Of a stretch of 63,914 bases of DNA, positions 1 through 27,221 are shown piece after piece; the stretch's first letter is position 1, and each line of letters begins with the position of its first letter. Origin of the DNA: Thraustochytrium aureum (taxonomy: Eukaryota); NCBI GenBank assembly GCA_012862495.1, contig BLSG01000216.1:523796-587709 (forward strand), in the 5' to 3' direction. Position numbers and translations under genes: made by a program. Below the pieces are notes generated by a model. The model saw only the letters and a program-made list of their open reading frames with translations. It made no database searches and was not told the origin of the DNA.

Positions 1-1442
1 CGCTCAAAATGCACTCTGCTCTTCCTCGCTGTGAAAGTGCACCCTCTCCGCCACAAACTTACCCGCTGTGCACAGTGAACAAGAGTAAAATTCACGTACT
101 ACTCCGCCGCTCAGCTGCATTTCGGGCGGACTTTGTGGCGCCCCTCACATGCGGGCGTTTTGCACATGGTTGCGGAGGCCGAGAGGAGCGTCGGATAGTT
201 TTTTTTCTCTGCACACGGAGAAACATATGCTGTTTCGCCGACTGGGGAAGATTCCCCGAACGTGCAGAGATGAGGCGGCGAACGAAGGAATGCTCGTTAG
301 AGCGAACGTAGGTTACCTTACCTCTTACCTTATTCATGTTGTGCGTGCATGTGCTGCGCGGACTCGAGCGCCCTCACATCGGCTGGCTCTCTCTTTCTCC
401 CTCTCTTTCCCTCTGGCTCCCTTCCCCTTGCCGCTCCGAAGGCGCTCAAGGCTCGCGTACGAAGAAAGTAAGTACCTACTAATACCTACCTAGGTCCTAC
501 CAGCCAGCGGTGTGTGAGGCGCGTGGCACGCCCTCTCAAGGTTTGCACACGCAGCAGTTCAGAAAAGAACTGAATTCATTCAGAACTGAATTTTTGGCGC
601 GAGAGAACGCCAGACGAAGCCCTCCGAGTCCCTCCTTCCCTCCTTCCCCCTCTCCCTCACACCGTTCTCACTGGAACCCTGCCCTATTCCTCAAGAGTGT
701 CTCTCGGTGAGCCAGCGTACCCTGCGCAGATTCACACAGTGACAGAGACGGTACCTGCACTCACACTCTCTCTGGCGCCTTCTTTCAAAAGTTCTTTTTT
801 CCCTTCTGTTCTGAATCAAAACCAAAGTGTTTCGTTTTTCTCTCCTCAGTCAAAAGGAGGGTGTTTCACGCAGAGGCGCTGCCTGTGAGGCGGGTTTGTT
901 TCGTGTTCAAGAGCGATGCGGAACCGTCAGGAGAGACAAGAAGCGAAGAATACCTACTCATTCGGTGAGTACTCGTACTAGTAGTCTGTAGCTGGTGCAG
1001 AGCTGCACCAAGTTTCGCGAGGGAAGAGCGCGGCGCAGTGCAGACCGCGGACAGCGCCCGCGAGGCCGCAGAGCAGACTAACGCGCGGTCGCTGCGTGCG
1101 GCTGCTGAAGCGGGTCCGGGCAGGNNNNNNNNNNNNNNNNNNNNNNNNNNNNNNNNNNNNNNNNNNNNNNNNNNNNNNNNNNNNNNNNNNNNNNNNNNNN
1201 NNNNNNNNNNNNNNNNNNNNNNNNNNNNNNNNNNNNNNNNNNNNNNNNNNNNNNNNNNNNNNNNNNNNNNNNNNNNNNNNNNNNNNNNNNNNNNNNNNNN
1301 NNNNNNNNNNNNNNNNNNNNNNNNNNNNNNNNNNNNNNNNNNNNNNNNNNNNNNNNNNNNNNNNNNNNNNNNNNNNNNNNNNNNNNNNNNNNNAGAGGCT
1401 GGCCGCGCTCGGCCGGCAACGCGGGCGCGAGGCGCCGGCACG

Positions 1443-4400
1443 ATGAGGTACACCGAGCTGCTCGCGTCGTACCTGCCCAGCGTCATCGTGGAGGAGCTGC
1501 TCGAGTCCAATGCAGACGAGGAGCTGCCGAGACGCACGGACTATGAGTCGCCCGTGCTGTTCGCGGACTTGGCGGGGTTCACGGCGCTGAGCGAGAGCCT
1601 GGCCAACCAGTACGGCTCGACGGTCGGCTCGGAGAAGCTCGCGCACCAAATAAACTCGATGTTCGCGCAGATCGTCAAAATCATCGGCAGCGAGGGCGGC
1701 GACGTGTTCAAGTTTGCCGGAGACGCCATGATCGTGCTCTGGGTGAGCCGCGACGAAGACATGGTCACGCGGACACGGCGCTCCTGCCAAACCGCACTGC
1801 GCATCCAGGAGCTCCTGAGTCGAGCCGAGGACGCCAAGCGCAGCGTGGAGCTCAGCGTCAAGATCGGGCTCGGCTTGGGGTCGCTGAGCATCTTGCGGCT
1901 CGGCGGGGTCCTGGGCCGCACCGAATCGATTGCGGTGGGTAAACCCCTGCACCAGGCGTTCATGGCCGAGAGCTTTGCTCGCCGTGGCGACATCGTGCTC
2001 TCGGGCAACGTGCTCTTCTGGATCGAGGACTACTTCCAAACCAAGATGGTCCCCGAGAGCTCGCGGAGCAAGCCGTTTTACTTTCTGACCTCGGACGCAA
2101 AGTCGAGCGTCATGCTGCGCAAGAAGAACAAGTTTGCGCTCCGCCAGGGACTCGACTCCATCTCCGCCGACCACGAAGCTGCCATCAGGAGGATGATCCC
2201 TGCAGCCGCGATCGAGTCTATCGACCCCAACCACCCAGAGTTTGAGCAGTTCTCCAACGAGGTGCGCCGCGTCTCTGTGGTGTTCATCTCGCTGGGTTTT
2301 GCGAGCGACGACCTTGCGGCCGCTGCGGAGGAGACCCCCGCAATGCGCCGCCTGCATCTTGCGCTGCGCATCGTGCAGACGACGCTGTACCAGCTCGAGG
2401 GCAGCCTCAACAAGTTCCTCATCGACGACAAGGGCTGCACCCTCATCGCCGTCTTTGGGCTCCCCCCTTTCTCGCACGAGAACGACCCGCAACGCGCCGT
2501 GACCTTTGCCTTGCACATGATCGATGCACTCGCCAGCGAACTGTACCTCAACAGCTCGGTCGGGATCACGACGGGCACCGCGTTTTGCGGCGTCATTGGA
2601 TCGCAGACGCGCAAGGAGTACACAATTCTGGGCGACATCGTCAACATGTCGGCGCGGCTCATGCAGGCGTCGCGGAAAGCGGGCTCGGGCATTGTCTACG
2701 TCGACGAGACGACGTACCAAAACTCGATGCGCGACATCGCCTTCCGCTCCATCGGGAAGCTGCACCTGAAAGGAAAGGCGGTGCAAGTGCCCACGTTTCA
2801 GCCGGTCGCCGCCTCCCTTGCTAGCCCAGACAGCGCCACCAGCTCGCTAGGGCCGGCGCAGGCGTTCCGCCTTGAAAGCGCCTCTCTCAACTACAACAAC
2901 TTTGACTCCGCGCTGGTGTCGCCGGCGTTTCGGCCGCGCTTTGACACGGTAGAGCTCCTCAGCACTCTCCGCATCTCTTCAATCGAGCCCGCAGAAGGCA
3001 GTTTCGGCGGGACCGCCGCTGACGCGCTCTCGGTCTACTTCAAGACGAGCGGCGCCGCTATCGTGTCGCCGAAAGGCAAAAAGGCCGGTGGACAGTTCTG
3101 GAATGCTCCTGAGCGCGCTGGTTCCCCCGCGGCAGGCGACGCTCCTCCCGGTGGGGACCTCGCTCAGCCGCTGTCGTCCCGTTCGCACGCGAAAGGCGCG
3201 AAGAAAGGCGGGCTCTTTCGGCTGACCCGCTCCACCTTTGCAAAGACCAAGGAGGCCAGCGCATCTCGCTTCAGCTCCCGGCTCGCGTCGGGCGCGTCTG
3301 CCAAGTCGGGAGAATCGAAGGAGGAGGTGGGGACGGGTTTGCACGAGGCGGACGAAATCGGGCGCAACTCGGACGCGTCGGACTTTGAGTTCAGCTTTGA
3401 CAAGGAACTCCGCCCGACCAAGTCTTCATCGTCAGGGTCCAAGAAGAAGAAGAGCAAGAGCAAGCCCAGCTCGCCAAAGGGGCGCAAAAAGCTCGCCTCG
3501 CGCAGCGGCGAGGACTTTTCGCAAGCCGCGCCTGGCCACGACGACGCCAGCAACCCCCGTGTGCCGAGCACAGAGAGCTCGTCGAGCGAGAGCGCGAACC
3601 GGCGCTCTGTCAAACGCGAATCCCTCATTCTGTACAACAACGTGCCTCGCCTTCCCGGCCGCGAGCTCCCTCAAAAGCCGGCTGAGCTCGAAGCGCTCGA
3701 GCAGGCCGCTGTCGGAGCGGAAGGCCTGCTTTTGCTCACAACGCTAAACCGCGACAAGCTGGAAACGAGCNNNNNNNNNNNNNNNNNNNNNNNNNNNNNN
3801 NNNNNNNNNNNNNNNNNNNNNNNNNNNNNNNNNNNNNNNNNNNNNNNNNNNNNNNNNNNNNNNNNNNNNNNNNNNNNNNNNNNNNNNNNNNNNNNNNNNN
3901 NNNNNNNNNNNNNNNNNNNNNNNNNNNNNNNNNNNNNNNNNNNNNNNNNNNNNNNNNNNNNNNNNNNNNNNNNNNNNAACGCTAAACCGCGACAAGCTGG
4001 AAACGAGCTCCAGCGTGCTCTCTGGGGCTTACCAATCAGCTTGCCGATCCGGCCTGCTGCGCTCGAGCGTCCCTCCTTCGGGGCTCGCTCTCCTCATTCA
4101 GGGGACCGAATTCTGCCTCCCCGTGCAGCTCTTCGGGTCGAATGCGGAGTACCTGTCGCCGCTTGAGCCTGGCGCGGCCGGCCTTGCCGACTTGCCGCTC
4201 AAGTATGTCGAGGCGATCGTCAACGAAGCGCTTTCCGGCGGGGAGATCCGTCACGACTTGAGCGCACTTGCGGCGGCTTCGGCCGCCGTGCAGACCTTCC
4301 GCAACGGCGGAAACGAAGCCAGCGCTGTTTCGTCCGGCTCGCCGACGAAATTTTGGGGGCCGTCGAACGGCACCAAGAACTCTCGCGCCGCTGCCTCTGC

Positions 4401-7400
4401 AGCAGCTTCGGCGGCCCCTGAACACTCTGCCGAGCCTTACGTCGACGACACGGGGAATGGCGGTACATCGCTCAAACTGGTTCTTGTGCCAACTCGCGAC
4501 CTTGGCCATATCCAGTCGTCGGCTTCGCACGTGATGCAAAACCTCATGTCGCGCAAGATCGAGCTCCTCGAGTATTCCCGTGGCAGCGTAACTGTCTTGA
4601 GCGGGGACCCCGGGTCCGGCAAGTCACACCTGCTGAAGCGGTTTCTGTTTGGCTTCTTGCCAGGTTCAGTGCACGTGTTTTGCAGCTCCGAGCAGTGGAG
4701 ATTGACGGCGAAACAGCGCCGCGGGCGCTCGCTGGCCGAGCCCGAGGAGGAGGACCGCCACGACCGCAAGGTGTTTCGCAACAGCGGGCAGAACTTTAGC
4801 GTCTGGTTTGAGATTGTCAACCGCTGGCTCGAGCTCGAGCTCACCAGGTCGGCCGACCTGATGCCGCAGACCGGTAGCTCGAGCAAGTCGCGCACCACCG
4901 ACGTGCAAAAGGCGCGCACGGTCGTCGTCAAGGGCATCCTCGACCTTCCTTGCATCCTTACGCGTCGCTGCTCAACGAAGAGCTCAATCTCAACTTCCTC
5001 CCCCCTGTTGGTGCGGCCGCCCAAGCGCTGAGCTCCCTCAACTCGCACGAGCACTCCACGCAGGTGAACGACATGATCTGCTCGATCGTTGTAGACCTGG
5101 TCAGCAAATTGGTCAAGGACCTCGGGAAGCTGCTCGTCGTGGTCGACGACTGCATGCGCATCGACGCACAGAGTTGGCGCGTCGCCAAGTGCCTCGCTGA
5201 GCTCGTCGCCGCGGACCAACTGCCGCTGATGATGGTTTTCGCCTCACGACCGTTCGAGGGCTTTGTGGACCGCTCCCTGGGGCTCTCGCCCCAGCTTCTC
5301 GCTGCCAGCACGAGGGAGGCGCTCGACGAGTACCGCAAACTTTGCTCGCTCCCCGTCGCGCAGTACATGCGCCTTGGGCCGATGTCGGGCTATATGGCGC
5401 ACGACCTGTTCCGCAAGCACATCGGGGAGAACATCCAAGCTGTCTCTCCCGACCTGTGGAAGGTTTGCGAATCCCGCTGCTTCAACAACCCGCTCCTCAT
5501 CAAAGAATTCGCGTTCCAGCTTCGCCAGGCGCGGCGCCCGAAGCTCGTCAAGTACTCGCCAATAACCGCAAAGTCCGGCAAGCGAAAGGGCTTGGAGGCA
5601 GGCACGCGGTACATCGCCTCGCTTCGCGTTGCGGTGCAAGAGCTCGACGAGCCGGCCTGGACCGTGCATGCTGCGCACCGCGCTCAGGTCAGCAAACAAG
5701 CGGCGCACCTGCTCGGGCACGACGGCAACGCCTCGACGCACCCGCTGGACCTTGATGTGGGCGGCGACGACGACGAGGTGGGCGGTAGCAAAGACGGCCG
5801 CTTCAGCCCCGACATGTACGCGCCCAGCGAAGTCCCGCCGCCGGCCACCGCTGCAGGCGTGCTCGGTGCCCGCATCGACCGCTTGCCAGCAATGGAGCAA
5901 CTCGTGCTCAAGATCGCCTGCGTGGTCGGAAGCGTCTTCGCGCTTCGCCTCGTGGAGGAGGTTTACCCGTTCCAAAACGACGAGTCCCGCGTCGAGGTCA
6001 AGGCGGCTTGCGAATCGCTTGCGGACCAGCATGGGCTCTTGCACAAAATCCGCGCCAACGCCTACAACGATGAGTACGTGTACCGCTGCGCAGATGTGCT
6101 GCTCGTCTCGACGGTGCGCCACCGACTCTTGCAGAAGCAAAAGCTCGGCCTGGCGGCAAAAATTACGCGCTCAAGAAGCCAGTACAAAGCGGCACTCAAC
6201 CTGAGCGACATGCAAAAGCAGGACAAGACCTTTTCCCTGTTCGACCCCTCACGCCTCTCGGCCTCCAGCCTCACAAAGTCGGGCCACGCACTGGGCGGCC
6301 CTGGCGCCCCCGGAGCGCATGAATCGCGATGGCAAAAGGAGGGCCAACTGCAGCTCAAGAAGGAAAGCGAGTCTCGCATGCTGTTTTNNNNNNNNNNNNN
6401 NNNNNNNNNNNNNNNNNNNNNNNNNNNNNNNNNNNNNNNNNNNNNNNNNNNNNNNNNNNNNNNNNNNNNNNNNNNNNNNNNNNNNNNNNNNNNNNNNNNN
6501 NNNNNNNNNNNNNNNNNNNNNNNNNNNNNNNNNNNNNGCATGTCGAGGCAGGCTGCCGGGAGGCAATCTTCCTGAGCGATGCATCTGTGCGCGTGCTCGA
6601 CCTGTCGGACGGCGCAGATCGCGCCGGTATGGCGGGCAGCAAGAACTCCAAGCTCGTGTTTGTCGTTGAGAGCGCCGAGTGGAACCGTCGCGGGGAATTC
6701 ATGTACACGCCGCGCTCCTTCGTCTTTGCGGCTGCAACAGAGGAGGAGGCTAAGAGCTGGTACTCGCGCATCCGCATGGTTGTGAACAAGCTCAAGCTTG
6801 GCGCGCTCCTGCCCGCGCCGCGCACAGGCAAGGCGCGCAGCCTCACGTCGACGGGGTCTGCAAAGCTGGCTCTCAGCACGCGGCTGCTCCCCGTGCGCCA
6901 CCGAGAGGCCAACACGGTGATCTCCAAGAAAGACACGGTGCTCCTCATCACCATGGAGCGAGCGCACCGCGAGGTTGGTCCCCATCTCGCCGATCCTCTT
7001 GCCCCAAGGTAGAGGGCGACCCTTGGCCAGAGATGTACGCCTCGCTGAGGCTCAAGCTGAAAAGCGCGGAGAAGGTGGTGCGCAAGCAGACGATGTTGTC
7101 GCAGCCTCAAAGCACGGAGCTCCTCCCCTTTAACGAGAGCTTCGCCTTCGCGCTGAGCCCTGAGACGCTCTTGGACTGGTCCGCGATCGGCAAGTGCCCC
7201 CACCGGAACGCGATGGTCGAGATCGTGATGTGGAAGCAAGAGGACGGGGCCTTGGGGTTTGATCGCATGATCGGGCTCTGCTCCGTGCCCCTCGCCCCGC
7301 TCGCCAAGCAGCTCGGCGCCCGGGCCGGAGCGAAATCCGGGTCAGGGGCCACCCTGCAAGTGAAGACGGAGCTCCCCATTTCTTGGCCGTACCAGCGCAG

Positions 7401-9896
7401 TGGGAAGAAAGTGCGGAGCCGCCCTGTAGAATCGAGCATACAGGTCACTCTGAAGCTTCAGGTCTCCAAGGCGGACCTTGACTGCCTGAAAGTCTTGGTG
7501 GCTCGCGATAAGGCAGAGCCCGCCGCGTCGCCCTCGTTTTATGAGCTCGGCCGTGAGGTCTACAAACTCAACTCGGAGCTGTTGCATCGACAAGAGCGCG
7601 ACCACCTGATCAAAGACCGCGCAAACTCGGCAGCTTCGCTTCTCGACGACGACCAAGGAGTCCACTCCAGCATCGATCGCAAACTCTCGCGCGCGGGGTC
7701 GAAAGACACGCGGAGAAGCGCGCCGTCGACCCGCAGGTCGCGCGCGCCCAGGGCCTCGAAAAGTCCCGATCCAACTCTGCCCTTGTCGGCTCGAGTGAGA
7801 CGCGGGGGAGCTGGACTTCGGCCGGCGGAGTTGCGCTGAAGCGCAACAGCACACCAGCGGACGCAACGACGGCGGCAGGCGCTTCTCCGATCGACGCTGC
7901 GCTAAGTCACCTCGAGTACCTCATTTCGCTATCGCGAGGGAGCCGCGACAAGCGCAAGCAGCAGGACCTCGACAATCTCAAGCAGCTGCTTCTGACTCGT
8001 TCGTTCAACTCGCTCGTGGACCATGTGAAGCTGGACGAGGACTCCAAGCTGTGGCTGAGCACCTTCACGCGGAGCGCCGAGGACGGCGCGTCGACCTCGA
8101 ACAGCAGCGGCCCCGTCGGGGCAGTGAAACGCCTTTCAGCTAGTGCGGGAAGCCGCCTCAAGCTGCAGCGCGGCCGGGCCGACACCGTGAGCACGGTGGA
8201 GAAGCACTCTGACGTGTACCTGGCGGAGGTGGGGCGGCCCCTCTCCTACCTAGACGACTCCAAGGCGATTCGCGGGCCGCACACGCTGAGCTTTTTCACA
8301 AATAAGCTGCTGAAGAGGCAGATGCGGGACACCGTGCTCGTATTCGTGCACAAGTCCGAGAGCGACGCCGAGAGCGAGCCAGTCGACGAGCGCGACATGG
8401 TGCCCCTCCAAGAGCACCTGACGCAGCTGGCCAAGTTGGCCATGCAGGCGACCAACTCGGCCTCGCTGCACAAAGCCAAGTCGGTGCGCAAGAGCAAGCT
8501 GGCGATGGCGCTCATGCAGGGCAACGCGGGCCGCAAGTCGAGCGTGCGCACGGGAGCGCACCCCTCTTGCTACCAGTCCCGCCTCAACGAGACCATGTCC
8601 TTCGCTGCGCTGGAAAACATCTGGATCCAGTGGGCTTTGCGCGAGAGCAGGAAGCACGGCCACAACGCTGGCACGTTGGAGCCAGGAAGCTGGACTTTTG
8701 ATCTCGGGGCTGTGGACGTCAAGCTATATGGCGTCCTGTTCAGCACGTTTTTGGCGAGGCTCGGCCTCGACGAAGAGTTTGCCATCACCTCCAAGGCGAC
8801 GTACGGCTTCGTGGAGTCGGTGCATGAGAGCATGTCCATGCACGAGGCGCCGTACCACAACATGGACCATGCCATCGACGTAGCACAAGCGGCGTATTGC
8901 CTGCTCGGCCGCATGGGCGGCGCCGAATTGCTCGACTCTGCCGAGGTCCTCGGCGTTCTTGTGGCGAGCTTGTGCCACGACATGGAGCACCCAGGCCTCA
9001 ACAACGCCTTCCAAGTGCGCGCAAAGACCCAGCTCGCGCTCCAGTACGACCGCTGTCCGCTGGAGAGCCACCACATCGCGTGCTGCTTTGCACTTCTGCG
9101 GGAGGAGAGCACCAACCTTCTCGCGGGCTGCTCGCAGCGCGACGCTGACAAGGCGCGCACAGTTATTGTCGACACCATCCTGGCGACAGACATGCAGTCC
9201 CACTTTGGCCTGGTGGACCAGGTTCGCAATTTGGTATCGCGCAACTTTGACGATGGCGCGTTTGGGGGGGGCTCGACGCTGGCTCGCATCTCGACCGAGG
9301 ACACCGATGCCTCAGATAGCCCCGGGGGGCTCGGCATGGCGGACCGCAGCACGGTCGCCAAGGCGATTATTCACTTTGCAGACATATCGAACCCCAGCCG
9401 CAGTTGGCAGGTTGCGCGGCGCTGGCAGTCGCTGATCGTCGAAGAGTTTTTCTCTCAGGGCGACAAGGAGCGCGCCAACGGGTGGGAGATCTCTCCAGGC
9501 ATGGACCGCGAGATCACCAAGGTGCCAGACATGGCGCTCAGCTTTATCGACTTTATCGTGGCCCCTGCAGCTGTCTCGCTCGCTGGTCTGCTCCCCAAGT
9601 CGTCGCTCATTTGCGTGAACCTCGCAGAGAACAGGTCGCGCTGGGCCGAGATCCAGGAGCAGGACGCCCTCAAGCGCAAGGATCTCAGCGACTCGACGCG
9701 GAAGGAGGCGCTCGAGCAGCTCTCTATGCGGCGCGCGGCGTTTGACGAGATCCTCTCCTCTGCGGGTTTCACGCGTGGTTTGGACGGCTCGATCAGCTAT
9801 GCGCCAACCACGTCCACCAAGCGCCGCGGCAGCCTGTACGGGCTCGAGGCCCTGCAAGCGCGCCAGTCCGTTTCGCTTCCAATGACAGATGTGTGA
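1443..9896 (+). CDS. Soluble adenylyl cyclase (ADCY10/sAC-like tandem class III cyclase)-P-loop NTPase-PH-C2-class I cyclic nucleotide phosphodiesterase fusion, reconstructed from 6 ORF pieces
   Basis: ATG 1443 (MRYTELLASYLP). Pieces: 1443-3770, 4009-~4950, ~4950-6387, 6538-~7005, ~7005-~7703 and ~7703-9896. They are joined by a 31-nt overlap across one gap, one true gap inside the PH domain, and three -1 frame breaks. Domain motifs run across or right up to the junctions. Confidence 0.75.
1545..2810 (+). other. Tandem class III adenylyl cyclase domains (C1+C2, sAC type)
   Basis: C1: VLFADLAGFTALSE...GGDVFKFAGDAMIVLW, with both metal-binding Asp. C2: SLNKFLIDDKGCTLIAVFGLPP...GITTGTAFCGVIGSQTRKEYTILGDIVNMSARLM, with the Lys/Thr ATP-specifying residues and the catalytic Asn/Arg. 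Confidence 0.95.
4585..6150 (+). other. STAND/AAA-type P-loop NTPase plus winged-helix region as found in sAC-family cyclases
   Basis: Walker A GDPGSGKS (4603-4626), Walker B LLVVVDD (~5130-5150), NNPLLIKE (GxP-like motif) and ARIDRLPAMEQLVLKIACVVGSVF. Confidence 0.85.
6325..6790 (+). other. PH domain, interrupted by gap 6388-6537
   Basis: N-terminal strand QKEGQLQLKK before the gap. C-terminal RSFVFAAATEEEAKSWYSRIR helix with the conserved Trp after it. Confidence 0.75.
6935..7460 (+). other. C2-like domain
   Basis: VLLITMERAH...MYASLRL...LPFNESFAF...VEIVMWKQ...FDRMIGLCSVPL follows the C2 strand pattern. Confidence 0.65.
8690..9650 (+). other. Class I (HD-type) 3',5'-cyclic nucleotide phosphodiesterase catalytic domain
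   Basis: PYHNMDHAIDV, HDMEHPGLNN (HDxxHxGxxN signature), LESHH, ILATDM, HFADISNP, EEFFSQGDKE and FIDFIV. Confidence 0.95.
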
Positions 9897-10032
9897 AGAA
9901 TGAATTTTGTGTTTGTAGCTCCAACCCACCACGATCGCGTCGACGTCGCACGTAGTGGGAAGAGTTCTAAGGTTGGTTTTCATTCAATCGGAAAGCTGCC
10001 AAGACCTCCCAAAACATCAGCAATCGACCAAC

Positions 10033-13000
10033 TCAGCACGCGGAGTGGCCGCCTGGCGTGGCTGGCGAAACCGTGGCCCAATCGTCTGCGCTGTCGACAA
10101 CAAGGAAGCCCATGTTGCTCGATCCGCTCCGCCCCGCAGATATCTCCGACAGCATGTTGCGCGCCAGCGCGGCAAACTTCATGGCGCGCGTGGCAGCGTC
10201 CGCCGTGCGACGCGTGCGCTCCTCTTCGACAGCGACAGAAAGCGCCTTGAGTTGGGCGTTGCGAGCGAGCTCGGCCAGAACAATCTCCAGCAGGGACTGG
10301 TGCACGAAGCGCGCCTTCTCGTGCTCGTAGAGACGCTCTGCTTCGCGCGCGCTGGCCCGGCGAACGATCTCTTCCTGGACGCGGGCCGCCTTCCTGAGCA
10401 GCTCGTAGGACTCGCGCAGTTCTTCCACTTGCTGCGAGGTGGCCTTCCACGAGGCCTTGCTCACGAGCTGACGGTGGCATTCGCTAAGCGAGTGCCCCGA
10501 TTCAACCAGCGCGGTGAAGCCAGCCTTGACCTGCTCCTCGCGCTCCGCAGCGACCGCACGGTCGACCTTGTCGCGGTTGTTGACACGCTCAAACTCGCCA
10601 AGCACGGCTTGAAAGGCACTCTGCGCGGATCGAAGCACGCGCTCGGCGTCCATGGCGCGGTCCGCGGAGCGAGCGTTCATCGTCTTTTCCAGCTCGCGCA
10701 CAACGCCGTCAAACGAAGTCACCAGCAAGCGCCGCTGACGCTCGAGGTCCATGGCGCGCAGCGCTTCGCCCCGGTTGTAGACGCGCTCGACGTCCTCCAA
10801 GACGCTGTAGAGCGCCTCGACGGCGCTGCGAGTCTTGAGCGCAAGCGGGGCCTCGTCGATCCGAGCCGCTGCCTCGGCTGCGACCAGGGCGTCCACAGCG
10901 CGCTGGTTTGTGCGGCGCACCAGCTCGTCCATGGCCCTGTTCTTGTGCGTCGCAGCAACGCGCTCTGCGCGCTCGCCGTCAGCGGCGGCGATCGCGGCAG
11001 CGCGGTTGAGCGCGCGCAGCAGGTCCTGGAAAACGGCGTCCAGTTTGTCGCGGTTGATGCGTTCCTGCTGCTCGATGGCCATCGCGGCGTCAACGCCCTT
11101 GATGCGGGCATCGCGGTCGATTTCGTTCAGGAGCGCCTGAAACACGTTGCTGCTTTGACGCAGCGCCATCTGCTCTTGCATGCCCGCGAGGCGCTCGGCA
11201 CGCTCAGCCTCGACGGCGCAACGGGCCTCCGAGCGCCGGCGCTTCTGACCAAGCTCCTCAAATACGCGCTCTGCCTTCATACGCGTGACGCGCGCCATTT
11301 GCTCGGCAAGAGAGAGTTCGCGTGCGCGGCGAATGTTGACAGTGCGCACGAGCTGCTCGCAAACTGCAGGGACGCGGACCTCGGCAATGACGCGGCGCTC
11401 GCGCTCAAGGTCCATGCTTAGGTCAGCGCTGCGCTGGTTCCCACGGCGCTCAATGCTCTCGAGGAGGTCCGCGTTGACCTCCTTCCGCGACGGGTTGGCC
11501 TGTACGAGCTCGGCGCGCTCTTGCTCAACGAGCGTGCGCGCTTCTGCGCGCCTGAACTCGGCGCCCAGCTGTTCGAGCGCGCGGCAGAGGCCCTGCTGGT
11601 GGCGGACGCGAGCCACCTCCTCTTCTAGTAGCCCGAGCGCTTCCCGCCAAGCCACGGTGCGCTCGAGGTCTTGGAGCGCGCGCGCGTAAAGGCGCTGCAC
11701 AACCTTGGACTCTTGTTCGCGGTCCATGGCGCGCAAGGCGGCGCGCTGGTTTCCAAGCCGCTCGATCGCCTCGAGGACTTCAGAAGGCAGCGGGCCCGTT
11801 CGCGAAGCGCCTGCGTCGTCCGCTTTGCTCTCTGGCTCGAGCCAGTTCTTGCAGAGGCGCTCTCGCTCGGCCTCTACCATTTGCGAAATGCGGCGGGAGG
11901 ACGCTCGCAGCTCGATCTCGTCCACGACATGCGCCTGGAGGCGAGCGTGGGCGATGCTGGCTACTTCCAGGTCGACCAGCTCTCGTGTCCGGCGCCACGC
12001 CACCGTGCGCTCGAGGTCGCCAAGGACGCGCTGCTTGGTCTCGGAGATCACCCTGCGTTCCTGTTCACCGGCCATGCTGGCGTCCGCCTCCCGCTGGTTG
12101 CCCCGGCGCTCGATTGCGCAAAGGATCTCGGCCAGCTCGCCGCAGGCCTCGCGCGCCTTGATCGCGGCGGCCTGCTCTGCGACCAGCTGCTTTTGCGTCT
12201 CCCGCACCACTGCTGTGACTTGGCGGCGACGGCTCGCCTCCGCAGATGCCGCAGCAACGCTGCTGTACGTGCCGCGGAGCACGCGGTCGCGCTGCTCGCG
12301 GCCGGCCGACCTATCGGCCTCTTTCTGGTTGGCCTTTCGCGTGGCCTGATACACGCACGTTTCGAAGACGGTCTCCAGGAGGTGCTCGAGGCGCGCGAGA
12401 TTCTCGGCGCGCAGAGCCTCGCGCTTGCTGTATGCAGAGACGATTCTTTCGTTTAGCGTCGACTTTGCGTCGGCGAGCTCGGGGCTGGGCGAGTCTGCCA
12501 TGGCCACGATCTGGCGTTGGCGCTCCACCTCCTGAGCCTGCAGCGCGGACTTCTTGTTGGCGACGCGCTCGAGCTCACTGAAGACGTCCAGCTTGTTGTC
12601 GCTGGCGATGCGACGCACGCGCTCCTTCTCCATGCTGCGATCGGCCCGCGCGCGGTTGAACGCGCGCTCCAGCGTCGTCACGAGGTTGCCCTTCTTCTCG
12701 CAGACGACGCGCTCGAGGCGCTCGCCCTCCTCGGCGGCCAGCACCTCCTTCTTGAGCACCGAGCGAGCCGCGTCGTTGGCCACTGCGGGGAGCCGGGCGA
12801 AAAACTTTTCGTGCGTGGGGAGTCCGAGGGTCTCCCGGCGGCACTTCTCGTCCAAGACCATCCTGTCCACCATGCGCACATTGGCCGACCTCTCCTCGTT
12901 CTCCTGCGCCTCAATCTCGCGATCCTCCATGACGCGCCTCGTCTGCTCTTCATCCGACAGCGTCATGGCCATCACCTGGTTCGCCCTCCGTTCCAGCTGC

Positions 13001-13083
13001 TCATTCACGCGACCAAACACGTCCATGCTGGCGCGGCGCGCCTTCTCCTCCTCGAAGGCGCGTCGCGACTCCACGGACGCCAT
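10033..13083 (-). CDS. Uncharacterised alpha-helical protein built of ~33-aa tandem repeats
   Basis: 1016-aa ORF rich in E/R/A, with recurrent (I/L/V)ERxxNxRxAxxxMxxExxRR units. An upstream ATG at 13216 may be the true start if further indels are present. Confidence 0.8.
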   Translation of the reverse strand: MASVESRRAFEEEKARRASMDVFGRVNEQLERRANQVMAMTLSDEEQTRRVMEDREIEAQENEERSANVRMVDRMVLDEKCRRETLGLPTHEKFFARLPAVANDAARSVLKKEVLAAEEGERLERVVCEKKGNLVTTLERAFNRARADRSMEKERVRRIASDNKLDVFSELERVANKKSALQAQEVERQRQIVAMADSPSPELADAKSTLNERIVSAYSKREALRAENLARLEHLLETVFETCVYQATRKANQKEADRSAGREQRDRVLRGTYSSVAAASAEASRRRQVTAVVRETQKQLVAEQAAAIKAREACGELAEILCAIERRGNQREADASMAGEQERRVISETKQRVLGDLERTVAWRRTRELVDLEVASIAHARLQAHVVDEIELRASSRRISQMVEAERERLCKNWLEPESKADDAGASRTGPLPSEVLEAIERLGNQRAALRAMDREQESKVVQRLYARALQDLERTVAWREALGLLEEEVARVRHQQGLCRALEQLGAEFRRAEARTLVEQERAELVQANPSRKEVNADLLESIERRGNQRSADLSMDLERERRVIAEVRVPAVCEQLVRTVNIRRARELSLAEQMARVTRMKAERVFEELGQKRRRSEARCAVEAERAERLAGMQEQMALRQSSNVFQALLNEIDRDARIKGVDAAMAIEQQERINRDKLDAVFQDLLRALNRAAAIAAADGERAERVAATHKNRAMDELVRRTNQRAVDALVAAEAAARIDEAPLALKTRSAVEALYSVLEDVERVYNRGEALRAMDLERQRRLLVTSFDGVVRELEKTMNARSADRAMDAERVLRSAQSAFQAVLGEFERVNNRDKVDRAVAAEREEQVKAGFTALVESGHSLSECHRQLVSKASWKATSQQVEELRESYELLRKAARVQEEIVRRASAREAERLYEHEKARFVHQSLLEIVLAELARNAQLKALSVAVEEERTRRTADAATRAMKFAALARNMLSEISAGRSGSSNMGFLVVDSADDWATVSPATPGGHSAC

Positions 13084-13834
13084 CCTGCGTCAGCCAGCGC
13101 CTCGACCTCCTTTTCCACCAAATGCTCCTGCAGCTGCGCCTCCTTTCGCTTCCCGACTCCGGCTGCTGCCGCTCCTCGACTTCGATTGGGGTCTGCTCGT
13201 CATTCGATGCATCCATCGACGCTAACTAGCAACTACATGCAGCATGCATTCGCTCCTTACTAGTAGCGTCTCTCTGCCACAAGGCGCTCTCTCTCTCACT
13301 AGCGCAGAGGCTTTCGTCGAAAAATTCAAAAAGTCTCACGAAAGTCCTCCTCACAGCTCCTCGCGAGCCGCCCCCTTGAGAGGGGACGCTTTGCTTTTCT
13401 CGGCGAAAAAGCGCATAAAACCCCTGCTCGCCTCACTCGCCGCGAGGTTGATGCTGAGAGCGGCACCGGGTCGCCCTCACAACGGCGGCCGCGCGGTTGA
13501 GAGGCGCCGCTTGAAACCGGCGCGAAACGCCCGCGTTCGCCGCGCGGAATCCCCGGCGCGCTGTGAGGGCGACAATCGCGCGGCGCGAGCGAGCAGAGAG
13601 GAGAGAGAGGAGAGAGAGCAGGGGCGTTTTGGGAGGCGGCCGCCGCCCGCGACACCATGTGGGGCCTGCGCGACGGTCCCGCGGGAGAGTGGACGGGCGC
13701 TCGATTTTGACCCCGATGCCGATGCGGTGGACCTGCGTGTGCCACGCGACGCAGGCAGGCCGACCAGTGAGTGACTCCTTCCTGGTCGCGAAGGCCTCGG
13801 CTGCCGCTGCACCAGGCGTTCCAGAAGGACCTGA

Positions 13835-13856
13835 CTGCTGCTGCTGCTGCTGCTGC
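13835..13856. repeat. (CTG)n microsatellite
   Basis: About 7 tandem CTG units. Confidence 0.8.
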
Positions 13857-15168
13857 TCTCGCTTCCAGCTCGTCAACGGCCATGCGTGCGGGTTGGGAGG
13901 ACGGCCGAATGCCACTTGCGTTGCGAGCTCGAGCGGCGCACGGCGGATCGCGGACTGGGCGTCCTGCCTGCACACGTGAGGGTGAACGGAAGTGTTCGGG
14001 ACTCGATGGCGGTCCCGCGCTACTCGTTTCGGCCGCAGGAAGGGCACCATCGTGCGCGTGGGGCCGCCAGCCTCTGGCTGCGACCACGGGGCGAGCGCGA
14101 AACGCTCGAGCACAAGCGGGCGTTTCAAGGGGGCCCACAAACACGCCCCTGGTCGTTCAGCTGGGAACTGACGGCTCCCTGACTGCGCGAGCAAGGAGCG
14201 CGAGCCAGAGCAAATCATCTCGAGGAGCCCAGCACAGGAGTCCTTGTNNNNNNNNNNNNNNNNNNNNNNNNNNNNNNNNNNNNNNNNNNNNNNNNNNNNN
14301 NNNNNNNNNNNNNNNNNNNNNNNNNNNNNNNNNNNNNNNNNNNNNNNNNNNNNNNNNNNNNNNNNNNNNNNNNNNNNNNNNNNNNNNNNNNNNNNNNNNN
14401 NNNNNNNNNNNNNNNNNNNNAACTTGAGCTCTTAGAGACGAGTCCGGCCTCAAGTCCTTGCTCGCTTCGCTGGCTTGGCCGGCCGCCTTGCGTGCGACGT
14501 GTCGCCGTTTCCCGGCCGGCCCTCGTCGCCGCACCGCTTCCCGTCGCAACTTGATGAAAAAAATGGAGGAGCACCTCATCCGCGTCGCGCCGAGCACGAT
14601 TGGCGAGCGGGGCCGGTGCGATGACGGGCACGGCGCAACTGCATGCAGCACGAACTGGCTCGCCAAGCCCCTCGAGAGCTTGTCGAAGCGTCGAATGGCC
14701 CAGCTTCGGCCCGTGACAACCACGGACCAAGCCTGGCCCGCCCACGTTGGGCTGGACTCGCCGAGCGAGTTGATCCCTCGAGCCGGAGCCAAGGGCGCTG
14801 CCTCCTGCCGATGCCGACCCTGCACTCGGCAAGCAAGCGAGCCCTTACTTGCCATTTGCTTGCTTGGAGACCAACTCGCTGGCGCAGCCGAGTTGGCAGA
14901 CGAGCTAGAGCTGCATACAAAGCCGGCAGGCAGCCAGGCTCGCTGGCCGGCTGGCTGGCGCGCAGGCTGGCTGGCGTGACGCGTTGTCGTTGTCGTTGCG
15001 GGCTCATCAACGCGCCGGATCATCAATCGTGTTGTGATCTCGTTCGTCATGAACATTTACTGTTTCCCTTTGGCGGTTGGCCAGTGGGATCGATCGATTG
15101 CGCGCGGTTTACGTCCAGGCGGCAGAGACGCAACAGTGCCTGCGCCGCACCCGAGCGCTCGCGGCGGC

Positions 15169-18100
15169 ATGGTGGACAGGGGTCCTCGGCGCCAGTCGTT
15201 TGACCAGTGGGCCCATGGGTTCGGCGGGTCGAGGAGCGGGCTTCACGCAGTGAACCAAGGTCAGGGGAATGACCATCGCACTTTGCCCCAGCGGAATGGG
15301 CCTGGCAGAGACGGGCCCGGGGAGGAGCGGACAGGGCCACGAGCGGCGGAGGCAACGGAGTTGCCGAACGCAGAGCGGAAGGTGGCGGGGTTCTCGTTCG
15401 AGGCACTGTTGGACGCCACGGACAGCCACATCCGCGACCTACAGACCAAAGTCCATGGCGTCACGCAGAACAGCCAAAGTGCGAGACCATTGCAAGAAGT
15501 CTCTCCTGCACTAGCGGACGAATTCGACGACGCGCTGTTGTCCAACTCCGAACTCAACTCCAGCTATCAGCGAGGTAAGGTCGCGGCATTGTTCAGGGAG
15601 CCGCAGCCGCAACACGCTCGCCAGGGCGCTGTTGAGCCCGACCCTGTCTTCCCAATGCCAATGCCCGCAACCTCGCCTTATGTAGCATCGCCGCTGCCTG
15701 CGCCTCCGCAGCGATTCTCGCCGCGGACTGGCGTCAGGCAAACACCGCGACAAATCGCCAGCGGTTCGAGACCGGGAACGGCTCGGTCACAGGGAACAGC
15801 AGCTTCAGCAGCGCGATCTGCCGAGCGGACACGGGCGAGTAGTACAGAAAGAGACCCGGGCGAGAGGTCCCTGCCGCCGTCTCGCGAGCAAGTCGAGTCT
15901 TGGACGGGCTCCTCGGAGCCCGTCGTTCGGAACGGCCACGCAAGCACGCCGAGGAGCTCGCCCAGGCGGGCGAGGGCGCTTTCAGCAAATTCTGGGCCCC
16001 GATCCCCGCTAGCGCTCAGGATGCAAGCCAGGGTCGAAAAACTTGAGCAAAAGGGGCGAAGCCAGATTCGTGCAGGGCGCCCGGAAAAGGCCAGAGCTGC
16101 TGTTCGGCGCCTCAAGAGCATAACCGAAAAGTTGTACGCAAGGATCGCATCTCGCGCTCTTCGCAACCTCCGCGAAAATGCCGTCGGATACAACTCAGGC
16201 TCCGATACGGACCTCGCCGATGAAGACGGCGCATGGTCGTCCGACGAGGAAATCCAATCCCGAGGACGACGCGTGCCGCGGCTTCCGCCGCCGCCATCTC
16301 GACAACTTCGCCCACATCTTCGCAAGGACCGGCCCTAGAGGCAATTGCGGCCCGGCTACTGAGGGGCGCTGTATCCCGTGCTCTGTGCAGGCGGAAGGCG
16401 AGAGCAATACGTGTTTGGCGAGCCGCTACACGCACAGCTGCACGCAAGCAGGCCGCAGCGGCTCGCCTTGCAGCATCAGCTNNNNNNNNNNNNNNNNNNN
16501 NNNNNNNNNNNNNNNNNNNNNNNNNNNNNNNNNNNNNNNNNNNNNNNNNNNNNNNNNNNNNNNNNNNNNNNNNNNNNNNNNNNNNNNNNNNNNNNNNNNN
16601 NNNNNNNNNNNNNNNNNNNNNNNNNNNNNNNNNNNGGCCTCCACGTAGACGCGCGTGCCTTGTCCCTCTCATTCCGAATGCTAGCGGCGGAGCGGCCGCG
16701 GCTGGCGCGCGCCAATAAGGCGCTTTCGGATACCCGAGCGGTTCTGCAAGGCGTCCGCAAGCATCTCGTGGACGCGCGCAATACACGCGTTGCCGAAACG
16801 CAGCGCCTTGGCGCCCTGATTCTTGTTCAGATGGTTCGAGCGCGAGCCAAGCAAGCCGTGCTGAAGCGCTTCGCACATTGGGCCGCCTCCGCAAAGGCCG
16901 CTCGACAGCGCGACCTGTCCGCAGCAATTCGAGCCATGGAGCGCCTGGCTGTTGACTCGAGGCAGCAACGCGTTGCAGACCAAATCGAGGACACGTGCAC
17001 CAACTTTGCAATCGCGCAGCTAGAGCAAACAAGACGCGACTTTCTTCTCTCCCGTGCGCTCGCACGCGTCGAGCGTCGGAGAACGTCTCGCGGATTCCAG
17101 GCGCTCGCTCGGTTCGCGCTCGGTGCAGGGTCTGCCTCAAAAGCTTTGGCACTGTCGACATCCGCAGCTCAAGCGCGAGCGGTGGCCCTGTCACGCGCAT
17201 TTGCAGCGTGGCGGCTAGCGCGGCCGGCTTTGCGGTGGCAAAACCAGTCGTGCGTGCTCTTCACAGGGGCGCTAGCGCGATGGTTGCGCAGACGGGCTCG
17301 TTCGAGTCTCCATCGCGGGTTCGCCGCGCTAAAGGCTGCAGCAAGGGCACGTGGCAGCGTCTCGCGGACCCTTCGGACCGCGTTGGGGCGGTGGCGAAAC
17401 GTCAATCTGTCCGCCGCGTTCTCCGTCTGGGCTTCACGGACCGGCAATAGCCGGGCTGGTTTGCAAGCCGCGAGGCTCATTTCGGTGCTCCTCAAATGGC
17501 GCCTACACAGAATTAACTTTGCATTCACGACCTGGCGGCGCAATGCCCTCAACCAACGTTCGCGCTCTAGCAGAGCCAGCGCCGTGGCGCTGGCCCTTGC
17601 CCGCCTTCTTCGCAGCCGCTACGACCGCGCCAAGCCCTCTATCGCCTTCGCGCCAACGCGATTCGCCAGCATGCGATCGTGAACGATGCAGCGGTGCTAA
17701 AGTACCACCGAAGAATCTCGCTCGTCTCGATCCTCGAGCGCGCCGCCGCCGCTCTGGCGCGGTGGAAGATGGCTAGCGTATTCCGAGCGCTGCAGAAGTG
17801 GCGCCAGGTCGCACTACTAGATGCGGGAGACCAGCAGCTAGCGTCACGGCTTTTGGCCCGCGTCGCGCTCCGCTGGCACTTGTCCCAAAAGGCGCGGGCA
17901 TGGCGAACATGGGTCTCCTTTGCCAACTCGCGAGCGCGTCACGATCTCATGCTCAGGCGCACCCTATCCAATTGGCGGTTCCGGCGCGCAAGCTCGGCCT
18001 TTCAAGCGTGGGCAGCGTTTGCAGCAGCTCGACGGGCCCGCAAAGCACGCCTGCGAACTGTCGTGGGAAGATGGGCGCTCCAAAACCAAAGCCGCGCGTT

Positions 18101-25817: not shown

Positions 25818-27221
25818 CTAGTTGTACGAAAACACTGCGCCCCCAAACGTGTAGACGATCGCGAGGCCGAGGACCGCGCACGCCGCCTGAAACGCGAGAA
25901 GCACAACACAAAGCGTCCTCTCATGCATCGGACCGAAGAGCCCAAGTGCCGCGCACAATAACGTCAGATTGTTGCGCGGGTCCCCAGGGGCCATCTTTGA
26001 CGGTTCTAGAAAGCCTGTTGAAAGGTTGATCTTCGGAAGGCGATGGCGCGGGATGGGCACCAGGTGGAAGAGCTGGGGCGCCGAGTAGCAAAAGTTGATC
26101 ACCTGCGGCAGGACGAGGAACAGGAGCGACTTGGAAAAGTGTCCCAGCACCGCCGCAACTGCGATGGTCATCCCGCTATAGTACGGAAAGACGTCGCCGA
26201 CAAAGACGGAGGCTGGGTAAAAGTTGAACCGTAGCAGACCAAACGAGGTTGCAATAAACGGCAGCATCAACATAATGCTGAACAGGTGGTGGCGGCCGTC
26301 CCCAGAGAGGATTTGCTCAGCGGTGCCTCCACGCCAGGCAAGGTCCAGGAGATTCATGACAGTGATGCTGCACGCGATTACGATGGCCTGGCCAACCTCG
26401 ATTCCGTTGATGCCTGCGTAGATGTTGATCGCGTTTGTGCAAAACACGACGAGGAAAGACATGTACAGATAGTAAACGACCCCGAGGTCAACGAGGTGCC
26501 CGTTAGCGTGCGGGTCGACGGACACGGTGGGGATGGCGTTGAGTAGCCTGGCGAGCGGGCTCTCTTCAGACTCGAGCATGGGCGAGAGCGCGCGCGGCAC
26601 AAGAATGCTCGTGGTCCCTTTGTAGGACACTAACAGGGGAAGCGACATGAAGAATCCGAGGATGAGCTTGTGCTTCCACTTGATGTCGATCACGTCGTCG
26701 ACGAGGCCGAGGAGCGTCGCGAAGCAAATCGACAGGAGTGCAGCGTTGTACTCGAGAATCTGGTCGTTCTGGGCCCCAAAGGCAAACTGCAAGAGACCGA
26801 CGCTGATCATAAAGACTGTCGCAGAGACGATCCCGAGGCTTTCTGGGATCCGCTTGCCGTCCGCCTCCCCGCCCAGCCCGCGCTTGCCGATGTCTACGCC
26901 GTTAAGCTTGACTGCTAGCTTTGGCGCAACGAGTGGGATCATTCTTGATGTAGCCACATAAGCAAGGCCAGATATTGCCGAGCAAGTGGCGAGTTGGAAG
27001 CCGAGCCAGCGGTCGACGGACCCGACCTTGACCAGCAAAACAGCGGTTGGCGCAAGCAGCGCAATCGTCAGCGAGCGCGAGGGCACATTCCAGGCCTCTC
27101 GCGTGGCGCGTGCTTGGATGTCATCGCCGTCTTCCCTGCGCTCTGCCGCATCAGCTTTCCCAGCCACCGCGGCAGCGCTGGCCGAAGCGCCGGTCCCGGC
27201 GGCCTGTTTCCTCCTCGACAT
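25818..27221 (-). CDS. DPAGT1: UDP-GlcNAc:dolichyl-phosphate GlcNAc-1-phosphotransferase (ALG7/GPT)
   Basis: IPESLG, LGLVDDVIDIKWKHK, FCTNAINIYAGINGIEVGQ, FNFYPASVFVGD and PRHRLP motifs; multi-pass hydrophobic profile. ATG 27221. Confidence 0.95.
   Translation of the reverse strand: MSRRKQAAGTGASASAAAVAGKADAAERREDGDDIQARATREAWNVPSRSLTIALLAPTAVLLVKVGSVDRWLGFQLATCSAISGLAYVATSRMIPLVAPKLAVKLNGVDIGKRGLGGEADGKRIPESLGIVSATVFMISVGLLQFAFGAQNDQILEYNAALLSICFATLLGLVDDVIDIKWKHKLILGFFMSLPLLVSYKGTTSILVPRALSPMLESEESPLARLLNAIPTVSVDPHANGHLVDLGVVYYLYMSFLVVFCTNAINIYAGINGIEVGQAIVIACSITVMNLLDLAWRGGTAEQILSGDGRHHLFSIMLMLPFIATSFGLLRFNFYPASVFVGDVFPYYSGMTIAVAAVLGHFSKSLLFLVLPQVINFCYSAPQLFHLVPIPRHRLPKINLSTGFLEPSKMAPGDPRNNLTLLCAALGLFGPMHERTLCVVLLAFQAACAVLGLAIVYTFGGAVFSYN

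What the first reader, a model, noticed from the sequence alone, without database searches (positions are those of the whole stretch)
1443..9896. One polypeptide that may both make and destroy cAMP: sAC-NTPase-PH-C2-PDE fusion
Seen in sequence: intact tandem sAC-type cyclase domains, a P-loop NTPase/winged helix, PH, C2 and a class I PDE occur in order on one strand with no intergenic space. The PDE frame is open back to ~7683, overlapping the C2 ORF (…AEKRAVDPQ…SPIDAALSHLEYL…DSKLWLSTF). Each break is fixed by one base in a short run (4950 tt, ~7003 cccc, ~7703 aaa). Established: sAC/ADCY10 normally ends in TPR-like repeats after the NTPase. Cyclase-PDE fusions are known (plant CAPE, diatom GC/PDE) but with other architectures. 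Inference: this is a soluble, membrane-recruitable (PH/C2) cAMP microdomain or pulse generator gated by a nucleotide switch. I am not aware of this architecture being characterised.
Basis: partly seen in the sequence, partly recalled or inferred. Interest (0 to 1): 0.9.

Follow-up and report, generated by a model that had tools for sequence, protein, structure and literature searches.

The report
Protist cAMP maker-and-breaker fusion protein
One gene, likely from a thraustochytrid-type protist, encodes a single 2,713-residue protein joining a predicted cAMP-making enzyme, a predicted nucleotide-switch domain, predicted membrane-binding domains and a predicted cAMP-destroying enzyme; relatives carry the same layout intact, so it likely makes short, local cAMP signals.

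Summary
The fusion is real. Public contigs laid on the window repair every frame break (+1 at 4943, -1 at 6980 and 7002, +1 at 7707/7708), close the first N gap and size the second at 76 bases, giving one 2,713-aa frame, 1443-9896 (26 codons in that gap read as X). Five collinear single-ORF orthologues exist, including Hondaea GBG26248.1. Cyclase catalytic residues, Walker A/B and PDE metal ligands are intact. PH is supported; C2 only moderately. Two residue changes matter: the sAC bicarbonate arginine is Phe, and the PDE's 'invariant' glutamine is Ala/Ser/Gly in all 22 rows of this PDE clade. Active plant CAPE also lacks it. A second, PH-less group appears to have gained a different PDE independently (p-AU 0.012). 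Best reading: a soluble, membrane-recruited enzyme making local cAMP that its own PDE confines and ends. No activity is shown, and nucleotide gating is doubtful. Cyclase-PDE fusions are known; eight literature searches did not find this architecture. New variant of a known kind; interest 0.62.

The parts
1443..9896 (+). Single coding frame, 2,713 aa after read-supported corrections; no intron joint seen
   Evidence: collinear with P0121-P0125
1443..2813 (+). Tandem sAC-type class III cyclase domains (C1+C2): D42, D94, K324, N401, R405 match human D47, D99, K334, N412, R416; K90 = K95 kept; F173 replaces R176
   Evidence: (human sAC, E 2.2e-43); residue roles from PMC12867704 Table 1
2814..3600 (+). 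Poorly conserved low-complexity linker (aa ~460-720)
   Evidence: 6-21% identity to the five orthologues over aa 501-700
3610..4510 (+). Conserved domain between cyclase and Walker A, possibly a ubiquitin-like (Ras-binding-like) fold; assignment inconclusive
   Evidence: conserved in 5 of 5 orthologues; only weak hints: Foldseek E 5.7-9.5 to Parkin Ubl, ubiquitin, ISG15, PI3K; PI3K_rbd E 0.0089 below cut-off in homologue P0004; hhalign E 0.0068 vs controls 0.16-0.5; nothing usable
3740..3977 (.). False assembly gap: N run plus 31-base duplication
   Evidence: joint 3739 to 3978 in 4 of 4 runs
4603..4626 (+). Walker A (GDPGSGKS) of the STAND NTPase
   Evidence: sequence; kept in 5 of 5 orthologues
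4943..4944 (.). Assembly error: one base missing
   Evidence: 4 of 4 runs
5127..6180 (+). Rest of the STAND module: Walker B (hhhhDD, 5139), hhhSR motif (5238), NNP in the GxP position (5484), winged-helix-like region (~5820-6180)
   Evidence: 446 representatives at E<=0.001, most listed ones matching residues ~285-360 of the query; motif names recalled
6333..6791 (+). PH domain, interrupted in the window by an N run that stands for 76 bases
   Evidence: Pfam PH above cut-off in P0121-P0125
6935..7470 (+). Divergent C2-like domain; two surplus bases at 6980 and 7002 are assembly errors
   Evidence: Pfam C2 at this position in P0001, P0126, P0127, P0128, P0255, not in P0121-P0125
7707..7708 (.). 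Assembly error: one base missing (two alleles seen)
   Evidence: A after 7707 in X2 and X3, T after 7708 in X1 and X4
7884..8072 (+). Conserved helical hairpin ending in an LDxxSxxWL...FTR motif; candidate PDE regulatory cap (untested)
   Evidence: strong in orthologues, E 2e-4 to 0.07 in distant fused proteins, not significant (E 2.4-3.6) against PDE1 proteins; three helices predicted
8241..8348 (+). GYF-like domain, degenerate
   Evidence: hhalign probability 68%, E 4.9e-5, five controls 0.12-0.9; predicted beta-beta-alpha-beta order; Pfam GYF here in P0001, P0126, P0127
8574..9776 (+). Class I PDE catalytic domain; metal ligands intact; purine-binding Gln replaced by Ala (codon 9534-9536)
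   Evidence: fold Z 39.5, rmsd 2.0 over 316 residues to 2r8q

Best explanation
The gene encodes one 2,713-aa protein that is predicted to be soluble, likely docks on a membrane through its PH and C2-like domains, is predicted to make cAMP with its N-terminal sAC-type cyclase, and likely destroys that cAMP nearby with its tethered C-terminal phosphodiesterase, which would give short, spatially confined signals. Shown: the single frame, the domain order, intact catalytic motifs, and conservation in relatives. Inferred: the STAND module restrains the cyclase at rest, as the C-terminal region of full-length mammalian sAC is thought to. PH, C2 and PDE sit where STAND proteins normally carry a repeat sensor, so membrane binding or a partner would release the cyclase. 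Inferred: the cyclase is not bicarbonate-activated (Arg176 is Phe) and may respond to pH, like sea-urchin sAC. Inferred: the Gln-less PDE prefers cAMP and may have lower affinity, so it acts mainly at the high concentration next to its own cyclase. Step odds: one polypeptide 0.97; active adenylyl cyclase 0.85; active PDE 0.75; membrane recruitment 0.6; nucleotide-dependent STAND gating 0.4.
For: Frame repaired by contigs of 4 runs from 2 studies, which tile 1394-10000 with overlaps of 71 bases or more (table 8); 8,142 nt with one terminal stop. Five single-ORF orthologues of 2,322-2,655 aa align end to end, e.g. P0124 at 39% over aa 1-2682. One relative with the full domain order, P0126, is a complete MMETSP transcript ORF. 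12 of the best 120 cyclase hits and 7 of 9 long PDE hits carry both Pfam domains. Cyclase residues match human sAC. PDE His/His/Asp/Asp ligands and the D-x-x-N motif are invariant in 22 of 22 aligned rows; PDE fold Z 39.5. MpCAPE has Thr at the Gln position and hydrolyses cAMP much better than cGMP (PMC8115329, PMC5159850). PDE5 Q817A loses cGMP affinity about 60-fold without changing cAMP kinetics (cited in PMC3069055). K95-kept, R176-lost sACs are bicarbonate-insensitive and pH-activated (PMC12867704). Highest 19-residue hydropathy is 2.02 and lies in a PDE helix.
Against: No activity, localisation or phenotype is known. No single contig spans cyclase to PDE, and the RNA label of X2-X4 is the tool's guess; 51 of the 76 gap bases were never seen. 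Nucleotides did not regulate purified human full-length sAC (PMC12802110). The invariant Gln is described as critical for substrate binding in PDE9 (PMC3069055), and this copy also lacks the Asn two residues downstream that most clade members have. C2 is below Pfam detection in the window and in 5 of 5 close orthologues. The architecture is labile: oomycete relatives have no PDE, and P0128 has a degenerate cyclase, so coupling is not obligatory across the superfamily.
Confidence: 0.5

Rival explanations
1. Both enzymes work in one chain, but the STAND module is a scaffold or fixed brake rather than a nucleotide switch; control comes from pH, phosphorylation or partner binding.
For: No nucleotide effect on human full-length sAC (PMC12802110). 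pH control of sACs lacking R176 (PMC12867704). GxP motif is NNP and there is no repeat sensor.
Against: Walker A and Walker B are kept in 5 of 5 orthologues, and the STAND/winged-helix region is as conserved as the cyclase (57-70% identity at aa 1401-1500).
Confidence: 0.2
2. The PDE domain is a weak enzyme or a cAMP sensor that feeds back on the cyclase, not a real sink.
For: Invariant Gln absent in 22 of 22 clade rows, against 35 of 39 rows outside the clade that keep it; Gln described as critical for binding (PMC3069055).
Against: All metal ligands and the catalytic His are kept; MpCAPE without the Gln is active.
Confidence: 0.12
3. The gene yields separate working units in the cell, a short cyclase like mammalian sACt and a PDE piece, through alternative starts, early polyadenylation or proteolysis in the long linkers.
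For: sACt precedent (PMC12802110); long unconserved linkers; no contig spans the whole gene.
Against: No splice joint in any of 4 runs; contigs cross the C2-to-PDE junction (X2 6845-8634, X3 5774-8149, X4 7355-8381); a complete 2,304-aa transcript ORF exists in a relative (P0126).
Confidence: 0.1
4. An NLR-like surveillance protein: the STAND module oligomerises on sensing an invader or damage, and cAMP is the alarm output.
For: Cyclase-STAND-TPR proteins are the nearest non-protist-type relatives, and STAND proteins often serve in defence (recalled).
Against: No repeat sensor; conserved, collinear orthologues with housekeeping-type PH/C2/GYF domains, unlike fast-evolving immune receptors (inference).
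Confidence: 0.06
5. Artefact: adjacent separate genes or a decaying pseudogene read together.
For: Three frame breaks and two N runs in the window.
Against: Every break is corrected in independent contigs and orthologues are single ORFs.
Confidence: 0.02

Closest known systems
Soluble adenylyl cyclase, full-length (ADCY10 / sACfl) and bacterial cyclase-STAND-TPR proteins
   Same: Tandem class III cyclase domains followed by a STAND P-loop module; catalytic residues conserved (PMC12802110, PMC12867704).
   Different: Bicarbonate Arg176 is Phe; PH, C2-like, GYF-like and PDE domains replace the C-terminal region (TPR repeats in the bacterial hits; TPR in ADCY10 is recalled); extra conserved domain before Walker A.
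CAPE (COMBINED AC with PDE) of streptophytes, and oomycete CAPE-like proteins
   Same: Class III cyclase and class I PDE in one chain; invariant PDE Gln replaced (Thr/Asn in CAPE); proposed to localise cAMP (PMC8115329, PMC5159850).
   Different: CAPE has the PDE first, the cyclase last and transmembrane helices between; no STAND, PH or C2 is described. The oomycete CAPE-like accessions (OQR90122.1, XP_008616153.1, OQS03511.1) differ from the sAC-STAND proteins of the same species (OQR95212.1, XP_008606267.1, OQS05187.1). I could not fetch the CAPE-like proteins to check their architecture.
Diatom bifunctional GC/PDE (Seminavis robusta)
   Same: Cyclase and class I PDE in one stramenopile protein (PMC4726125).
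   Different: Predicted transmembrane guanylyl cyclase and cGMP PDE; here a soluble sAC-type adenylyl cyclase with a STAND module.
Oomycete and Mucochytrium cyclase-STAND-(FYVE)-PH proteins (e.g. P0022, P0043, P0105; uncharacterised)
   Same: Same cyclase-STAND-PH core.
   Different: No PDE; often a FYVE finger; separate clade in the cyclase tree.
PDE4 long forms (UCR2 cap)
   Same: PDE4 is the best PDB profile match for the catalytic domain; a conserved helical element lies upstream of it, as UCR2 does (PMC13095499).
   Different: No sequence match of the upstream element to any PDB chain; homology to UCR2 is not shown.

Membership tests
sAC-type class III adenylyl cyclase | Two tandem heterologous catalytic domains at the N-terminus | tested here: met
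sAC-type class III adenylyl cyclase | Metal Asp pair, adenine-specifying Lys, transition-state Asn/Arg | tested here: met
   D42, D94, K324, N401, R405
sAC-type class III adenylyl cyclase | Bicarbonate site K95 + R176 (mammalian type) | tested here: not met
   K90 kept, R176 is F173; many non-mammalian sACs also lack one (PMC12867704)
sAC-type class III adenylyl cyclase | No transmembrane helices | tested here: met
   hydropathy scan only; maximum 2.02 inside a PDE helix
sAC-type class III adenylyl cyclase | ATP to cAMP activity | not testable with these tools
   needs assay
STAND NTPase | Walker A and hhhhD(D/E) Walker B | tested here: met
   AAA_16 above cut-off in P0001, P0010, P0128, P0255 but below it in the window pieces
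STAND NTPase | GxP motif and winged-helix domain (features recalled) | tested here: inconclusive
   NNP in place of GxP; region shared with cyclase-STAND-length proteins; not folded
STAND NTPase | C-terminal repeat sensor (TPR/WD40/LRR; recalled) | tested here: not met
   PH, C2-like, GYF-like and PDE instead
STAND NTPase | ADP/ATP switch with oligomerisation | not testable with these tools
   needs biochemistry
Class I cyclic nucleotide PDE | PDEase_I domain and fold | tested here: met
   E 9.1e-70; Z 39.5, rmsd 2.0, 316 aligned
Class I cyclic nucleotide PDE | His/His/Asp/Asp metal ligands | tested here: met
Class I cyclic nucleotide PDE | Invariant purine-binding glutamine | tested here: not met
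   Ala here; Ala/Ser/Gly in 22 of 22 clade rows; active MpCAPE also lacks it
CAPE | N-terminal PDE, transmembrane helices, C-terminal cyclase | tested here: not met
   reverse order, no transmembrane segment
C2 domain | C2 beta-sandwich | tested here: inconclusive
   Atlas 19 of 30 hits C2, weak hhalign, no Pfam hit, not folded; Ca2+-ligand set looks incomplete by eye
Ras-binding / ubiquitin-like domain | Beta-grasp fold | tested here: inconclusive
   weak hints; none; the model lacked the first strands
GYF domain | GP[YF]...W...GYF signature (recalled) | tested here: inconclusive
   GP kept, W and GYF lost; profile E 4.9e-5

The most novel reading that the evidence does not exclude
A previously undescribed family of self-resetting cAMP pulse generators in which one STAND switch controls two opposed enzymes reciprocally, cyclase at one end and PDE in the sensor slot at the other, with membrane-lipid and Ras-family inputs. 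A PDE was grafted onto the sAC-STAND chassis at least twice, and loss of the PDE's invariant glutamine, also seen in plant CAPE, is a convergent tuning for working beside its own cyclase.
Probability: 0.2. Interest if true: 0.85.

Novelty: new variant of a known kind. Interest (0 to 1): 0.62.

Why it matters
cAMP nanodomains are normally built from separate cyclase, PDE and anchor proteins; this gene appears to hard-wire source, sink and membrane anchor into one chain. It offers a natural test case for an open question: what the STAND module of full-length sAC does, for which no regulator was found in purified human protein (PMC12802110). It also defines a PDE clade without the 'invariant' glutamine, which bears on PDE substrate recognition. 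The orthologue in Hondaea is annotated only as a phosphodiesterase, so the family is hidden in plain sight.

Tried and rejected
No whole genome is held, so copy number and other cyclases/PDEs in this organism were not checked. No listed run is on record as RNA. X2-X4 have no depth over 1-1254 and almost none over 13168-18800, where X1 has depth in 30 of 30 bins; this fits RNA but is not counted as evidence, and they are one study. Tiny-intron reading of the ~7010 break (GT...AG, 22 nt) rejected: wrong phase, and contigs show two single-base deletions instead. Ubiquitin-like domain: VIA wide search returned only generic helix matches, best Z 5.3; PDB profile search 0 hits; Atlas no usable hit. 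Pre-PDE cap: no PDB hit, not aligned to UCR2 in the fold search, complex prediction gave no answer (score 0.00, alignment not used). STAND search of 1.84 billion representatives gave only 3 hits under 1e-30, all known orthologues. Cyclase tree left out 24 of 128 rows (the weakest hits) and is a quick tree with long branches; it does not resolve the root. Proteins of 1,000-1,400 aa on ~4-kb contigs may be truncated and were not counted as PDE-less. P0286 (PH-PDE only) is not a stand-alone PDE: it starts mid-domain and aligns from aa 1415 on. Three look-ups of earlier findings returned nothing. PMC2705460 and PMC7720076 passages held nothing on this architecture. Leipe et al. 2004 on STAND architectures was seen only as a reference title and may mention such proteins.

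Full report
1. Observation. The window holds, on the + strand from ATG 1443 to TGA 9896, pieces of coding frame separated by three frame breaks and two N runs. Pfam finds two cyclase stretches (E 4.4e-18), sub-threshold AAA_16 hits on both sides of the first break, a near-threshold PH and a strong PDEase_I (E 9.1e-70); it finds no C2. No genome is held for the window, so I tested the breaks with public runs. Four of 11 listed runs hold most of the stretch and were laid on it. All four put a C after 4943 and leave out one base each at 6980 and 7002; all four add one base at 7707 or 7708; all four join 3739 to 3978; two span the second N run with 76 bases. The 25 gap bases visible as a loose end read, by eye, in frame as the start of a PH strand like that of the orthologues. 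Applying these edits by index gives 8,142 nt, 2,713 codons and one terminal stop, with 28 codons as X. Listed contigs tile 1394-10000 with overlaps of at least 71 bases, none spans the whole gene, and no splice joint appears.

2. Relatives. Searching with the PDE among proteins of 1,365-3,895 aa gave 9 hits of 5,949 candidates; 7 carry both cyclase and PDE domains. Five of them (P0121-P0125, 2,322-2,655 aa) align along the whole read-through, including Hondaea fermentalgiana GBG26248.1, annotated only as a phosphodiesterase. The window's organism is therefore likely a labyrinthulomycete (inference from nearest named hit; 100* clade of six rows). Searching with the cyclase among 801-2,285-aa proteins gave 408 hits; 12 of the best 120 carry a PDE. 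Four proteins show the full order cyclase-NTPase-PH-C2-PDE by Pfam: P0001, P0126, P0127, P0255; P0126 is a complete MMETSP transcript ORF. Oomycete and Mucochytrium relatives have cyclase-STAND-(FYVE)-PH without PDE. Four proteins, one from Cercozoa, have cyclase-STAND-PDE without PH.

3. Anatomy. Cyclase: human sAC is the top structure (E 2.2e-43); D47, D99, K334, N412, R416 and K95 are matched, R176 is Phe (roles from PMC12867704 Table 1). That paper reports that sea-urchin sAC, with K95 kept and R176 lost, ignores bicarbonate and is activated by alkaline pH (passages). STAND: Walker A and B are kept in 5 of 5 orthologues, with NNP at the GxP position (motif names recalled). PH passes Pfam's cut-off in all five orthologues. 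C2 is divergent but supported by the Atlas, a weak profile match and position. PDE: fold Z 39.5, metal ligands invariant in 22 of 22 rows.

4. The missing glutamine. The PDE aligns without gaps to PDE1B across the purine pocket, with Ala at the invariant Gln. In a 61-row PDE tree, the PH-type fused domains plus two others form one group (SH-aLRT 90, not starred) in which 22 of 22 rows have Ala, Ser or Gly there; 35 of 39 other rows keep Gln (8 near-duplicate or cluster-member rows were skipped). The four PH-less fusions form a separate group (97*), three of them with Gln. Forcing all fused PDEs together is rejected at p-AU 0.012, but on a quick LG+G4 tree, with two rows added to the group after the tree was seen and no root, so two origins are suggested, not shown. 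Marchantia CAPE has Thr at this position (PMC8115329, passages, section 13 and supplement rows) and hydrolyses cAMP far better than cGMP (PMC5159850, passages). PDE5 Q817A loses cGMP affinity but not cAMP kinetics, while PDE9 work calls the Gln critical for binding (PMC3069055, passages). An active, cAMP-preferring, perhaps lower-affinity enzyme is the likeliest reading.

5. Mechanism. I commit to a soluble enzyme recruited to a membrane by PH/C2, whose STAND module restrains the cyclase until released, and whose tethered PDE confines and ends the cAMP signal (0.5 overall). The fusion and intact motifs are shown; activity, localisation and coupling are inferred. The main doubt is nucleotide gating: purified human full-length sAC is about 3-fold less active than the short form but no nucleotide tested changed it selectively (PMC12802110, passages). 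Rivals: scaffold-only STAND (0.2), PDE as weak enzyme or sensor (0.12), processing into separate units (0.1), NLR-like alarm (0.06), artefact (0.02).

6. Known systems and novelty. It works like CAPE and the diatom GC/PDE (PMC4726125, passages) in joining synthesis and breakdown, but is a member of neither: order, topology and cyclase type differ. It is a member of the sAC-STAND superfamily and of class I PDEs, failing the mammalian bicarbonate site and the Gln criterion. PMC8115329 already noted cyclase-PDE proteins in four oomycetes; their accessions differ from the sAC-STAND proteins of those species. Eight searches aimed at this architecture (mostly listings only, open-access library only) found no description. 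Verdict: real, conserved, apparently uncharacterised; new variant of a known kind; interest 0.62.

Noticed in passing
P0123 (CAK9060722.1) and P0065 (KAH9261183.1): A protein labelled Durusdinium trenchii falls inside the six-row clade with Hondaea (100*), and one labelled Batrachochytrium salamandrivorans groups with Mucochytrium (97*). Both may be labyrinthulomycete DNA in those assemblies (inference).
   Followed up: no
P0128: Relative with the same domain order but a degenerate cyclase (catalytic motifs lost) and an intact PDE: a possible pseudo-cyclase-regulated PDE.
   Followed up: partly
window 10033-13083 (-): Convergent neighbour, 1,016 aa, repetitive charged helical sequence, no Pfam hit; ends 136 bases from this gene's stop and is covered by the same runs.
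   Followed up: partly
window 964-970 (+): GTGAGT splice-donor-like site upstream of the N run 1125-1393; could mark a 5' UTR intron of this gene. Not bridged by any contig laid.
   Followed up: partly
window 46582-50157 (-): BK/Slo-type calcium-activated potassium channel gene piece.
   Followed up: no
window 53933-63717 (-): VPS13-like ORF with a C2 domain (2,616 aa) and an adjacent PH-bearing ORF (629 aa) 44 bases upstream, possibly pieces of one gene.
   Followed up: no
window 51206-52897 (+), 25818-27221 (-), 33945-35522 (-): NDK7-type nucleoside diphosphate kinase, glycosyl transferase family 4 and bromodomain genes; 18807-23519 (+) 1,570 aa has no Pfam hit.
   Followed up: no
window 10006, 14796, 15060, 16331, 14247-14433, 16481-16651: Further small indels and mis-sized N runs relative to public contigs: the assembly is error-prone, so other broken ORFs in this window are suspect.
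   Followed up: partly
window 7707-7725: Two sequence versions among the runs (X2/X3 versus X1/X4), both restoring the frame; allelic or strain variation.
   Followed up: no
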